Shown: in pieces, positions 7,379 to 64,000 of the stretch | Numbering within the stretch: position 1 is the first letter of the stretch | Layout: the number at the start of each line of letters is the position of its first letter | Source of the DNA: Eledone cirrhosa | Taxonomy: Eukaryota | NCBI GenBank assembly: GCA_964016885.1 | Contig: CAXHJY010001706.1 | Span: forward strand, 44,105-108,104 | Reading direction: 5' to 3' | DNA length: 64,000 nt | Program-made: the position numbers and the translations under genes | The notes under the pieces: model-generated | The model's input: the letters and a program-made list of their open reading frames with translations, nothing else | Database searches by the model: none | Told to the model about the DNA's origin: nothing

Positions 7379-7565
7379 AATATAAGATCAAAAGATGGTT
7401 AAAGGAGTTCAATATATTTTATTATGCGCATTTCAAAAACAAACATCATCAAACAATAATATTTGTGTTTTCATCAGATAAAACAGGAGAACATGATATG
7501 AAGGCTAAAAAAACACTTGTTGATAGTGCAGTTTTAAATCAACATATAAAACTCACCTCCTACAT
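7379..7565 (-). mobile_element. Solo pLTR fragment of PLE family 1 plus 20 nt of the opposite-orientation terminal tail
   Basis: 7379-7546 is the reverse complement of ~23725-23892. 7547-7565 (AAAACTCACCTCCTACATA) is the reverse complement of 21123-21142. Confidence 0.88.
7415..7485 (-). ncRNA. Minimal type-I hammerhead ribozyme (PLE family 1)
   Basis: Reverse complement of the hammerhead at 23786-23856. Confidence 0.85.
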
Positions 7566-8716
7566 ATATATATATATATATATATATATATATACATATA
7601 TGTATATATATATATATATACATATATGTATATATATATATATATATATATATACATATATGTATATATATATATATATATATATATACATATATGTATA
7701 TATATATATATATATATATATATATATATATATATATATGTATATATATATATATATACGTACATATATATACATATATGTATATATATATATATATATG
7801 TATGTACATACATATATATATATATATATATATATATATATATATATATATATATATATATGTATGTATGTATATATATATATATATATATGTATGTATG
7901 TATATATATATATATATATATATATGTATGTATATATATATATATATATATATATATATATATATATATATATATATATATATATGTATGTATATATATA
8001 TATATATATATATATATATATATATATATATATATATATACATATATGTATGTATATATATATATATATATATATATATATGTATGTATATATATATATA
8101 TATATATATATATATGTATGTATATATATATATATATATATATATATATGTATGTATATATATATATATATATATATACATATATGTATGTATATATATA
8201 TACATATATATATGTATGTATATATATATATACATATATGTATGTATATATATATATATATATATATATACATATATGTATGTATATATATATATATATA
8301 TATATATATACATATATGTATGTATATATATATATATACATATATGTATGTATATGTATATATATATACATATATGTATGTATATATATATATATATATA
8401 CATATATGTATGTATATATATATATATATACATATATGTATGTATATATATATATATATATATACATATATGTATGTATATATATATATATATATATATA
8501 TACATATATGTATGTATATATATATATATATATATACATATATGTATGTATATATATATATATATATATATATATATACATATATGTATGTATATATATA
8601 TATATATACATATATGTATGTATATATATATATATATATACATATATGTATGTATATATATATATATATATATATACATATATGTATGTATATATATATA
8701 TATATATATATACGTA
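7566..8716. repeat. Interrupted (TA)n array with recurring CATATATGTATG variant
   Basis: Direct sequence. Confidence 0.97.
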
Positions 8717-8717
8717 T

Positions 8718-9326
8718 GTCAGGTCACCAGTTGGTGCTACTGGTAACATGTATCCCAGTACAACCTGTCCCATGGTCGGGTCGTTGGCGACTAAACTGGC
8801 AACCCCACCAAGGTTTCTTGGTGAGGAGGGTGACTTTGGACATCCTGCAGGACTAAAAACAAAACCTGTCAAAGGGCAAAGGAGCTCTTAAGAGTCAATG
8901 GCCATCCAAAATCACCGGGAGAGATGACCCCTTAGCCTTTGTCAAGGCAGAATTCTAGGAGAAGGAAAACTCTGATATAACACCTGCAACCCTGATGGTA
9001 TCCAATGATGTTGACTTGTTCTTCTTTTTGGTAAATATCATCTTGGTTAAGAGAGTGGGACTGGCTTTGTGCAGTGCCTTTGCTCACTATAAAAGCTTCA
9101 CGGCACAGGCATTGCTTTATATCTGGAGATCTCTCTGCACTTGTCGTCACATGGTACCATGGGCCCAGCACTATGTGTCAGTAATTGTCACAAGTGTAGT
9201 GTTTGTACCAGAGTTTTCAAGTCGCTGGCTGGACTAAAAAGTCACACTCGTTCAGCGCATCGGTAGGGGTTCTCCTACATGGATATAAAGTAGTGGCCGT
9301 ACTCGAAAACGAGTTGGCAGCCACCA
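8718..9326 (+). mobile_element. Non-autonomous bipartite RTE-derived retroposon (5'UTR-like part + 3' end), copy 1
   Basis: Contains the RTE 5'UTR-like motif CTAGGAGAAGGAAAACTCTGA. The 3' part encodes a C-terminal zinc-finger remnant ([16 protein letters not shown]) and ends with the RTE-type hairpin CTCGAAAACGAG-TTGGCAGCCA. Second copy at 13557-14175. Confidence 0.7.
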
Positions 9327-60300: not shown

Positions 60301-62950
60301 ATATATAAATATATATATATATATATATATATATATATATATATATATACATATATATATATATATATATATATATATATATATATATACATATACATAT
60401 ATATATATATATATATACATATACATTATATATATATATATATATATATATATATATATATATATATATATATATATATACATATACATATATATATATA
60501 TATATATATACAGATATATATATATATATATATATATATATATATATATATATATATATACATATACATATATATATATATATATATATATATACATATA
60601 CATATATATATATATACAGATATATATATATATATATATATATATATATATACAGATATATATATATATATATTATATATATATATATATATATACATAT
60701 ATATACATATATATATATATATATACATATATATACATATATATATATATATACATATATATATATATATATATATATATATATTATATATACATATATA
60801 TACATATATATATATATATATATATATATACACATATATATATATATATATATATATATATATATATATATACACATATATATATATATACATATATATA
60901 TATATATATATATATACACATATATATATATACATATATATATAATATATATATATATATATATATACACATATATATATATATACATATATATATATAT
61001 ATATATATACACACTATATATATATATATATATATATATATATATATATATATATATATAAATATATATATACATATATATATATATATATATATATATA
61101 TATATAAATATATATATATATATATAAATATATATATACATATATATATATATATATATATATATAAATATATATATACATATATATATATATATATATA
61201 TATATATACATATATATATATATACATATATATATATATATATATATATATATATATATATATATATATATATACACATATATATATATATATATATATA
61301 CACATATATATATATATATATATATATACATTATATACATATATATATATATATATACATATATATATATATATATACATATATATACATATATATATAT
61401 ATATATAATATATATATATATATATATTATATATATATATATATACATATATATATATATATATATATATATATACACACACACATAATATATATATATA
61501 TATATATATACACACATATATATATATATACATATACACTTATATATATATATATATATATATATATATATATATATATATATATATATATATATACACT
61601 TATATATATATATATATATATATATAATATATATATATATATATATATATATATGTGTATATATATATATATATATATATATATATATATATGTGTATAT
61701 ATATATAAATATATATATATATGTATATATATATATGTATATATATATATATATATATATATGTATATATATATACACATATATATATATATATATATAT
61801 ATATATATATATATATATACACATATATATATATATATACACACACATATATATATATATATATACACATATATATATATATATATATATATATATATAT
61901 ACACATATATATATATATATATATATATATATATATATATATATACATATATATATATATATATATACATATATATATATATATATATATATATATATAT
62001 ACATATATATATATATATATACATATATATATATATATATACACATATATATATATATATATACACATATATATATATATATATATATATACATATATAT
62101 ATATATATATACATATATATATATATATATATATATATATATATATATACATATATATATATATATATACATATATATATATATATATATATATATATAC
62201 ATATATATATATATATATACATATATATATATATATATATATATATATATATATATATATACATATATATATATATATATATATATATATACATATATAT
62301 ATATACATATATATATATATATATATATATATATACATATATATATATATATATATATATATATATACATATATATATATACATATATATATATATATAT
62401 ATATATATATATATATATACATATATATATATATATATATATATATACATATATATATACATATATATATATATATATATATACATACATATATATATAT
62501 ATATACATATATATATACATATATATATATATACATACATATATATATATATACATATATATATATATATATATATACATATATATATATATATATATAT
62601 ATATACATACATATATATATATACATATATATATATATATATATATATACATATATATATATATATATATATATACATATATATATATATATATACATAT
62701 ATATATATATATATACATATATATATACATATATATATATATATACACATATATATATATATATACATATATATATATATATATATATATATACATATAT
62801 ATACATATATATATACATATATATACATATATATATATATATATATATATATATATATATATATATATATATATACATATATATATATATATATACATAT
62901 ATATACATATATATATATATATATACATATATATATATATATATGTAATA
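57323..62950. repeat. Long interrupted (TA)n array with ~2.8-kb higher-order periodicity
   Basis: Variant patterns recur, e.g. at 58832 and 61653. Confidence 0.93.
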
Positions 62951-62957
62951 TAATATA

Positions 62958-64000
62958 ATAAATAACAAAGAACGCCTATAGCATATGCATATCTTTACTT
63001 GCTAACATTGTTTCATCCGCACTATAAGTGGGACTCATCAGAGCATAAAGGTTAATTACATACCATACAAGCAATAACAATCCTCAATAAGAATGTTGTT
63101 AAACTTTCGTATTCTACAACCCAAAATCTGGCCTCTCATCTGGCCATTACTAATAATAAGAAAATAAAGGAAGGCCTGGACAACCTAAGCCTAGGGGAAA
63201 ACACGGTAGTGGACAGAGTGGGCAGAAACACAAGTGGTGATCATTCTGAGAATAGCATCACCAGAGGTTGTAACTGTAGAAGGGCTTCAGGCTGCCCCCT
63301 GAATGGTTTCTGCCTTGTTAGAAACATAGTTTATGCGTGTGATGTAGTAACTACGGCGTCCACTAAGACCTATATAGGATCAACCTCCACCCCCTTTAAG
63401 ACCAGGTTTAACTCTCACCAATGCACTTTTAGACATAATAAACTGAGGAACTCCACCTCCTTGCAGCGTACGTCCATAATTTAAAAAATGCACGAACACA
63501 TTACACACTTACTTGGCGGCAGGTTGCTAAATCCCATCCATATACTCCTCATAATAGAGTATGTAACCTATGCCTTGCCGAATCCCACTCTATTATATTT
63601 GCTAAATGCCCTCTACTAAATAGAAAGTCTGAAATATTTTCCTCTTGCCCCCACCGAATATTAAGCTCTTTCTTCTACTTTAAACCTGTTAGCTAGCACT
63701 TCCTTATTCCTCCAGTTGGGCTGTCTTGTGTAACTGTCTCTGATTGTGTGTAACTGTCTCCTATTGTTGGTCGTCTATGTATATGAGTCGGTGAATGTAT
63801 ACGTATGCCTGTGGGAGGATATTGATCTGGATATTGGGGTGTACAGGTGAGTGGGTGTGTATGTTAATAAGCACCCCTGTTTGGCACAGCGGATGTAACC
63901 CATCCACGCTCGCCTACCCACCATTGGTGCATTGGTGGGTCTATCCCGACGTATATCTTGTGGATCTGTACCTCTGTATGCGCATGAGTTGTGATGTAAT
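62958..64000 (+). mobile_element. Penelope-like element family 3 (Naiad-like), 5'-truncated, with an inverted pLTR piece (62958-63080); runs off the window end
   Basis: From ~63082: LNKNVVKLSYST..CNCRRASGCPLNGFC..IVYAC..YIGST..FKTRFNSH, then a frameshift and CNLCLAES..LLNRKSEIFSSCPHR. Confidence 0.88.
62993..63050 (-). ncRNA. Type-I hammerhead ribozyme (same family as 36931-36988)
   Basis: Minus strand: CTTTATGCT-CTGATGA-GTCC..GGAT-GAAA-CAATG-TT-AGCAAGTAAAG. Confidence 0.82.

What the first reader, a model, noticed from the sequence alone, without database searches (positions are those of the whole stretch)
7379..63080. Multiple hammerhead-ribozyme families inserted into (TA)n as fold-back palindromes
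Seen: five unrelated families have clear minimal type-I hammerheads (23786, 29296, 17217, 45685, 36931/62993) and three more have partial or degenerate ones (25169, 52553, 20034). All lie in (TA)n. Most are built as a longer arm with a unique tail plus a shorter inverted arm, with spacers of 0, 0, 36 and ~780 bp. Known: Penelope-like elements carry minimal hammerheads with palindromic stem III and often have an inverted 5' pLTR, and retrozymes are proposed PLE parasites. Inference: one PLE-driven, TA-primed pathway mobilises both autonomous PLEs and ORF-less ribozyme RNAs here, and completes integration by cDNA snap-back, producing sense/antisense ribozyme palindromes.
Basis: partly seen in the sequence, partly recalled or inferred. 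Interest (0 to 1): 0.85.

Follow-up and report, generated by a model that had tools for sequence, protein, structure and literature searches.

The report
Penelope double-priming builds ribozyme palindromes
In this animal genome, Penelope-type jumping genes and protein-less ribozyme repeats sit in (TA)n as head-to-head mirror pairs whose two arms end at two fixed points, most likely because the enzyme copies one RNA twice, once from each cut DNA strand, and joins the two copies, with the 310-base ribozyme repeat likely copied round a circular RNA.

Summary
Real, genome-wide, not an assembly artefact, but partly misread. Five hammerheads are sound; 25169 is a truncated piece of a complete U3:A8 hammerhead; 52553 is degenerate; 20034 has none. 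Five of the eight families are ends of autonomous Penelope-like elements (four Hydra-type, one Neptune-type by motifs); three are ORF-less tandem repeats (310, 519, 561 nt). Inverted arm, tail and (TA)n bias are published PLE features, and LINEs here also target (TA)n. Single-cDNA snap-back fails: the tail arm is often the shorter, and some insertions have two arms sharing no sequence (also in the window, 7377-7565). All 29 resolved insertions of the 310-nt retrozyme have exactly one tail end and one tail-less end; both arms and all monomers share one haplotype that differs between loci. Best model: two primings on one RNA, then end-joining; rolling-circle copying for the retrozyme; near-perfect palindromes where both copies run off a shared (likely capped) 5' end. 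I found neither two-priming nor PLE-type ends on retrozymes stated in the papers read. This scan noted parts before in other genomes (5'-end pile-up, a ribozyme-free tandem parasite). Cleavage and circles were not tested.

The parts
7377..7551 (-). Family A (Hydra-type PLE) tail-less arm with hammerhead (core 7477), 5' end at the family's pile-up site
   Evidence: reference -109..+65
7546..7565 (+). Family A tail arm, last 20 nt of the tail only; shares no sequence with the partner arm
   Evidence: reference +134..+153
15558..16800 (.). Family C, ORF-less 561-nt tandem unit without hammerhead: - arm with tail (15558-16079), + arm tail-less (16078-16800)
16839..17421 (.). Family D, ORF-less 519-nt tandem retrozyme: - arm with tail (16839-17162), + arm tail-less (17163-17421); hammerhead cores 17134 (-) and 17227 (+)
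19117..20985 (.). Local tandem duplicate of the C and D insertions
   Evidence: (98.7-99% identity)
21124..21224 (-). Family A tail arm, 101 nt
21225..23894 (+). Family A tail-less arm: 5'-truncated ORF (RT thumb, CxCX5C linker, GIY-YIG), 3' UTR, hammerhead 23786-23856
24951..25098 (-). Family A tail-less arm, no partner seen
25116..25300 (.). Family H short palindrome: truncated pLTR of a 3.54-kb Hydra-type PLE; - arm tail-less (25116-25168), + arm with ~77-nt tail; keeps only the 3' part of a U3:A8 hammerhead
25730..29033 (-). Family B retrozyme array, 10.7 x 310 nt, tail end (phase 165) at (TA)n
29032..29108 (.). Family B central junction with an 80-nt local duplication of the join
29107..30710 (+). 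Family B retrozyme array, 5.2 x 310 nt, tail-less end (phase ~130-139); hammerhead e.g. 29296-29338, predicted cut 29332/29333
36895..37661 (-). Family F (Hydra-type PLE) tail-less 3' end with hammerhead (core 36979), no partner seen
45350..45890 (.). Family E zero-spacer palindrome: truncated pLTR of a 6.6-kb Hydra-type PLE; - arm with ~134-nt tail (45350-45685), + arm tail-less; long-stem-II hammerhead
48197..50116 (-). Family G (Neptune-type PLE) tail-less inverted arm
50115..52850 (+). Family G tail arm: 5'-truncated ORF 50182-52287 (RT, CX4CxxC, GIY-YIG with CCHH), degenerate hammerhead 52553-52600, 42-nt tail
62966..64000 (.). Family F: - arm with hammerhead (62966-63080) joined to a + arm in the GIY-YIG ORF that runs off the contig end

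Best explanation
These are Penelope-like-element (PLE) insertions with two inverted arms ending at two fixed RNA positions, likely made by two target-primed reverse transcriptions from the two nicked strands of a (TA)n site on one RNA, followed by end-joining of the two cDNAs. Step 1 (inferred; shown in vitro for an anole PLE): the GIY-YIG domain nicks both strands and RT starts at two internal sites 26-134 nt apart, the stretch between them being the tail. Step 2 (shown by sequence): each insertion uses each site once, and the arms stop independently. Step 3 (inferred): both cDNAs come from the same template and are joined with 0-6 nt microhomology or small insertions. Step 4 (inferred): when RT starts near the 5' end of the mRNA both cDNAs run off the same, likely capped, transcription start, giving the near-perfect short palindromes of A, E and H. 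Step 5 (inferred): ORF-less tandem RNAs B, C, D borrow this machinery; for B the template is likely a monomeric circle copied round and round, so arrays are born whole. The hammerhead likely serves to make monomer circles for B and D and is not needed for integration.
For: Two fixed ends, one of each per insertion: 29 of 29 resolved B insertions, 12 of them not selected by the tail; the same pattern in C, D, G (13 loci), H (15 of 16 partners end at +61), E and A. Inverted partner in 19 of 20 tail-anchored B loci versus 0 of 30 LINE loci. Tail arm shorter in 12 of 29 B insertions and in 3 of 13 non-tandem G loci. Arms with no shared sequence: 3 of 16 two-arm H loci and window 7377-7565. Same template: 0 discordant of 72 arm-site comparisons in B, with 15 haplotypes among 35 insertions; 13 of 22 locus-private G variants are in both arms. 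Circle for B: template-borne variants are array-wide, 0 of 17 single-monomer variants are shared between arms, centres do not pile up at one phase, and the cut site is not favoured (1 locus versus 7 and 3 at two control phases). Junction microhomology >=2 nt in 12 of 23 versus 18% expected; 8 of 23 blunt or with insertion. Run-off: 20 of 46 H arms end within -4..+6 of an Inr-like TT(T/C)AGT with TATTTAAA at -29, only 5 pass it; 13 of 30 A hits end at one site; a non-native G precedes the H start 3,045 times. Literature: both strands cut and extended, two RT starts bracket the tail, hammerhead mutants still insert (PMC11167929).
Against: No RNA data: no RNA holder listed, so circles, caps and cleavage are unseen. 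One RNA versus two RNAs from the same source locus cannot be told apart. About half of the extra Gs could be templated by the partner arm (by eye), and the A/C/T class numbers 15,262. In the anole assay the RT start sites did not differ between strands (PMC11167929), so why each site is used exactly once is unexplained. No sequence link was found between B, C or D and a given autonomous family. Three of 16 B stretches of the first fetch were single-armed, and 13-14 of 30 H loci showed no partner (the reference covered only 1.4 kb upstream). In the older families C and D many variants are unshared between arms (35 of 107, 44 of 93). All 9 one-arm private variants in G lie in the tail-less arm, an asymmetry the model does not predict.
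Confidence: 0.65

Rival explanations
1. One priming only: the cDNA folds back on itself (snap-back, or self-priming as proposed for Adineta Penelopes) and copies itself to make the second arm.
For: Arms share haplotypes; microhomology is enriched at centres; some centres are perfectly symmetric (L079); proposed in PMC3846280.
Against: A copy cannot hold sequence absent from its template: tail arms that share nothing with the partner and G loci where each arm has sequence the other lacks; 8 of 23 joins have no microhomology.
Confidence: 0.06
2. Hybrid: two primings occur, but the bulk of the shorter arm is filled in by fold-back of the longer cDNA rather than copied from RNA.
For: Gives the same junctions and shared variants; might explain the one-sided private variants in G.
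Against: 0 of 17 single-monomer variants shared between B arms, if some are RT errors; not needed for non-overlapping arms.
Confidence: 0.14
3. Two primings on two separate RNAs that come from the same active source locus or clone of circles.
For: Explains haplotype concordance without one RNA being read twice.
Against: Needs one source per cell in all 31 B insertions despite 15 haplotypes; does not explain one tail per insertion.
Confidence: 0.1
4. Retrozyme arrays grow after insertion by unequal crossing-over from a monomer or dimer, as satellites do (offered in bioRxiv 10.64898/2026.07.22.740005).
For: Would homogenise arrays; a few doubled variants occur in the longest arrays.
Against: Both oppositely oriented arms are long, >99% identical, bounded by the two fixed PLE ends and joined at random phases; independent expansion of both arms at nearly every young locus is unlikely.
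Confidence: 0.04
5. Assembly artefact from fold-back chimeric reads.
For: The window lies on a small repeat-rich contig; no raw long reads could be laid.
Against: Same asymmetric ends at hundreds of chromosomal loci, locus-specific joins, flanks not mirrored, LINEs unaffected; short-read contigs of run X1 show the phase-139/(TA)n junction.
Confidence: 0.01

Closest known systems
EN+ Penelope-like elements with pLTR, inverted 5'-truncated copy and tail (Craig et al. 2021 PMC8557442; Arkhipova et al. 2013 PMC3846280; Schostak et al. 2008 PMC2377424)
   Same: Partial tandems, inverted copy, one-sided tail, hammerhead in the pLTR, (TA)n bias; Hydra motifs (CxCX5C, DKT, RxRWR) in A, E, F, H and Neptune motifs in G.
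   Different: Tails reach 77-134 nt (30-40 described); the mechanism of the inversion is called undefined there or ascribed to self-priming, whereas the arm anatomy here points to two primings.
Metazoan non-LTR retrozymes (Cervera and de la Pena 2020 PMC7229834; Li et al. bioRxiv 10.64898/2026.07.22.740005)
   Same: ORF-less, low-GC tandem units each with a type-I hammerhead and palindromic stem III (B, D); proposed PLE dependence and circRNA template.
   Different: Here the arrays are head-to-head with PLE tail ends and single-haplotype arms; 'inverted' and 'head-to-head' do not occur in the main text of PMC7229834 and I saw no such description in parts 1-3 of the preprint. C has the same insertion form without a hammerhead.
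Anole Poseidon in vitro TPRT (Frangieh et al. 2024 PMC11167929)
   Same: Both strands cut and extended; two internal RT starts define the tail; hammerhead dispensable for insertion.
   Different: That paper does not link the two extensions to the inverted arm (its one use of 'inverted' is a blocking group) and saw no strand difference in start site.
L1 twin priming (as described in PMC11702581)
   Same: Second priming from the opposite target end, cDNAs joined by NHEJ/MMEJ-like repair, cap-derived G.
   Different: In L1 it is occasional and the second start lies next to where the first cDNA stopped; here it is the usual outcome and both starts are fixed and adjacent, so arms overlap and form palindromes.

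Membership tests
EN+ PLE (A, E, F, G, H) | Single ORF with PLE-type RT and C-terminal GIY-YIG | tested here: met
   ORFs of 816 aa (E) and 1216 aa (G) read directly; RVT_1 weak for G, E=1.2e-4; GIY-YIG seen as motif only, Pfam did not score it; two homologues carry PF01541. A, F, H seen only in part.
EN+ PLE (A, E, F, G, H) | pLTR/partial tandem, inverted 5'-truncated copy, one-sided tail | tested here: met
EN+ PLE (A, E, F, G, H) | Type-I hammerhead in the pLTR | tested here: met
   A, E, F, H complete; G degenerate
Hydra clade (A, E, F, H) | CxCX5C linker, DKT, RWK-like motif, CxxC and CxH around E/N, no CCHH, (TA)n targets | tested here: met
   All motifs in E; C-terminal ones in A, linker in F, N-terminal ones in H (against the text of PMC8557442)
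Hydra clade (A, E, F, H) | Phylogenetic placement of the RT | not tested
   No clade-labelled reference set was on hand; units of 3.5-6.6 kb exceed the '<3 kb' typical size
Neptune clade (G) | CX2-5CxxC linker plus CCHH in the EN | tested here: met
   and translations; Nematis shares these motifs and no tree was built
Non-LTR retrozyme (B, D) | Tandem ORF-less low-GC units each with a type-I hammerhead | tested here: met
   B 310 nt, GC 0.34, longest ORF 30 aa; D 519 nt, GC 0.33, 61 aa
Non-LTR retrozyme (B, D) | Self-cleavage and accumulation as circular RNA | not testable with these tools
   No RNA holder listed; circular folds are stable, z -4.5 and -3.8, which is not proof
Non-LTR retrozyme (B, D) | Target-site duplication | tested here: inconclusive
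   Both ends lie in (TA)n
Non-LTR retrozyme (C) | Hammerhead in each unit | tested here: not met
   C works like a PLE-mobilised tandem parasite but is not a retrozyme

The most novel reading that the evidence does not exclude
PLEs integrate by an obligate, coordinated double priming: one RNP reads one RNA from two fixed sites onto both target strands, and animal retrozymes are monomeric RNA circles that this machine copies by double rolling-circle reverse transcription into palindromic arrays up to 28 monomers per arm. That would settle the origin of the PLE inverted repeat and give the first direct genomic footprint of PLE-driven circRNA retrotransposition.
Probability: 0.45. Interest if true: 0.8.

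Novelty: new variant of a known kind. Interest (0 to 1): 0.62.

Why it matters
How PLEs make their tandem/inverted insertions is described as undefined (PMC8557442), and retrozyme mobilisation by PLEs rests on co-occurrence and sequence kinship (PMC7229834; the 2026 preprint). Young, abundant families here let one reject single-cDNA snap-back from sequence alone and give exact RT start sites, candidate transcription starts and a 310-nt circle to test in the existing in vitro PLE assay. Thousands of long palindromes would also be sources of double-stranded RNA and of genome instability (inference).

Tried and rejected
Rfam at E<=10 on the whole window was swamped by AT-hairpin miRNA models. DNA search with the A end found nothing because common words are skipped; a pattern found 4,400 hits. 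I first guessed a canonical CTGATGA directly before H's GAGTCC: only 3 hits; the real core is U3:A8, 55 nt upstream. Spliced origin of the H start was considered (TTTCATTTAG looks like an acceptor) and rejected because the letters upstream differ between copies. One B insertion with both arms starting at the cut site (L085) suggested cleavage in vivo, but it is a single locus, below controls. The B/G chimera in L085 repeats the neighbour's private junction, so it is probably local DNA templating, not co-packaging; it was the only direct B/C/D-to-PLE join among the fetched loci. No RNA holder listed; raw-read run X21 laid nothing. Homodimer prediction for E residues 1-470: no answer, alignment not used. 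The hammerhead survey (33 stem-III types) requires pairing by design and is not independent covariation. No second ribozyme class found in C.
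Full report
Setting. The window is G000:C1733:44105-108104, the end of a small contig of a 3.0-Gb genome. The nearest named relative of the family G protein is from Octopus vulgaris, 69% identical, so a cephalopod host is likely (inference). The window is a (TA)n field with islands of mobile elements, including APE-RT LINEs.

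Observation. The hammerheads of A, B, D, F pass a strict descriptor (7 hits versus 0.13 in shuffles) and A, B, D, E and full-length H fold by minimum free energy into dimers with intermolecular stems I and III, the arrangement described in PMC4209133. Common B alleles spare the core: two turn G-U into A-U in stem I, one is at the free position 7, two lie in loop II, one breaks the first pair of stem II. H's complete motif has the U3:A8 core known from Schistosoma PLEs (PMC4209133). G's is degenerate although the family is young; C has none.

What the families are. A, E, F, H are 3' ends of autonomous PLEs with Hydra-clade motifs; G is a 4.1-kb Neptune-type PLE with an Asn-rich insert. B, C, D are ORF-less tandem units of 310, 561 and 519 nt. 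Exact-pattern counts: 997 B tail/(TA)n junctions, 4,400 A hammerhead motifs, 19,539 H tail/(TA)n junctions.

Architecture genome-wide. B: 19 of the first 20 tail-anchored loci have an inverted partner, the twentieth runs into N. Of 31 two-arm insertions scored, 29 have both outer ends; all have one end at phase 165-170 and one at about 130-139; the tail arm is longer in 17 and shorter in 12 (L042, a duplicate running into N, was dropped, and L065 was not grouped by that script but shows the same two ends). Three stretches of the first fetch were single-armed. C ends at 352 and 434, D at 466 and 49-56, G at -42 and 0/+16, H at +61 and +138, E 134 nt apart, A about 86 nt apart. Control: a LINE of this window has (TA)n at 24 of 30 3' ends, 0 of 30 inverted partners, and 0 head-to-head pairs among the first 100 listed hits, against 36 pairs for A. 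So TA targeting is shared with LINEs and the inversion is PLE-specific.

Test of snap-back. A self-copied arm must be contained in the other. In 3 of 13 resolved G loci the tail-less arm reaches further 5' than the tail arm while lacking the tail. In 3 of 16 two-arm H loci the arms do not overlap at all. The window shows it twice: 7377-7565 (no overlap) and 21124-23894 (13-nt overlap). Two RNA-templated starts are therefore required. Joins show >=2 nt microhomology in 12 of 23 (18% expected), none in 5, insertions in 3; 4 more joins could not be parsed. This resembles L1 twin priming (PMC11702581) and fits the anole PLE, which cuts and extends both strands from two starts bracketing the tail (PMC11167929).

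One template. B arms never disagreed at 72 comparisons, with 15 haplotypes among 35 insertions (chance match 0.13 per locus). In G, 13 of 22 locus-private variants are in both arms, including L073, where neither arm contains the other; the three recurrent one-arm differences are one site in a low-complexity tract. Two RNAs from one source cannot be excluded.

Circle for B. In G, template-borne private variants appear once per arm; in B they appear in every monomer of both arms, and none of 17 single-monomer variants in shared registers is in both arms (the four 'shared' cases are haplotype alleles in one-monomer arms). Each insertion thus passes through a single monomer. Centres fall at any phase and the cut site is not favoured. 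Rolling-circle copying of a monomer circle, proposed in PMC7229834, is the simplest reading; it is inferred, with no RNA seen.

Short perfect palindromes. In H, 20 of 46 arms end within -4..+6 of an initiator-like site with TATTTAAA at -29 and only 5 pass it; A and E pile up likewise. Some insertions carry a non-native G on both arms (L189/L190, L132); G precedes the H start 3,045 times, against 15,262 for T, C or A, of which the first 100 listed were 75 T and 20 C (native alleles) and 5 A by my count. I read this as run-off at a capped start inside the pLTR (promoter in the pLTR shown for Drosophila Penelope, PMC2377424); the G is only suggestive. In H this start lies inside stem II, so such transcripts lack the ribozyme core.

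What is known and what I saw. PMC8557442: passages. Preprint 10.64898/2026.07.22.740005: parts 1-3 of 5. PMC11167929: parts 1-2 of 4 and passages. PMC3846280, PMC7229834, PMC2377424, PMC11702581: passages. PMC4209133: part 1 of 4, which already reports opposite-strand hammerhead pairs 100-700 bp apart. Initiator and TATA consensus and hammerhead numbering are recalled. Searches showed no paper stating double priming for PLEs or PLE-type ends on retrozymes; the library lacks most subscription papers (Arkhipova 2006, Evgen'ev and Arkhipova 2005, Lunse 2017 were not seen) and I read no supplements, which may hold such a model. Earlier notes of this scan on other genomes report 5'-end pile-ups near the hammerhead and a ribozyme-free tandem parasite; searches for twin priming or rolling-circle wording with Penelope returned none holding all words.

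Verdict. The value lies in the mechanistic footprints: coordinated double priming on one template, and retrozyme arrays born whole with PLE ends. New variant of a known kind; interest 0.62.

Noticed in passing
window 29180-29541; runs X1-X20: The 310-nt B monomer is held near-identically by runs under 17 organism labels in 16 studies; in X5 and X12 it is a single ring-shaped contig at low depth without flanks, in X1 638 contigs. Cross-contamination is the likeliest reading; wide horizontal spread or a free circle is not excluded.
   Followed up: partly
L068, L073, L074, L076, L081, L084, L086: All 9 locus-private variants found in only one arm of family G lie in the tail-less arm; no such bias in B. 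Unexplained.
   Followed up: partly
window 15558-16800; L212-L236: Family C is an abundant ORF-less 561-nt tandem element with PLE-type ends and no hammerhead.
   Followed up: yes
L069:4950-5480; L196:2120-2660; L052:430-960: Diverged B relatives (70-80%) keep the region holding both RT start sites (phase 59-212) while the hammerhead differs or has decayed; a candidate recognition element for the helper PLE.
   Followed up: partly
L085 (G000:C3:172484300-172486600): A B palindrome with both arms starting at the predicted cut site, next to a G insertion that contains inverted repeats of that junction and duplicated ORF pieces.
   Followed up: yes
window 33962-36658, 10463-12683, 38367-38906, 40902-43205, 54452-57309, 43651-45125: APE-RT LINEs, one RTE-like with a C-terminal PHD finger, also insert into (TA)n; one family has 3,643 exact 3'-end hits, many only 30-50 nt long.
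   Followed up: partly
flanks of L031-L404: At least 33 types of type-I hammerhead turn up in flanking DNA of the fetched loci, many with U.U or an extra base at the foot of stem II.
   Followed up: no
window 1-2153: GC-rich 21/63-nt tandem repeat with long open frames; unrelated to the finding.
   Followed up: no
G000:C2:356030076-356031893: A 299-nt tandem array holding the H tail/ORF-start junction: possibly a retrozyme-like circle just born from an autonomous PLE.
   Followed up: no
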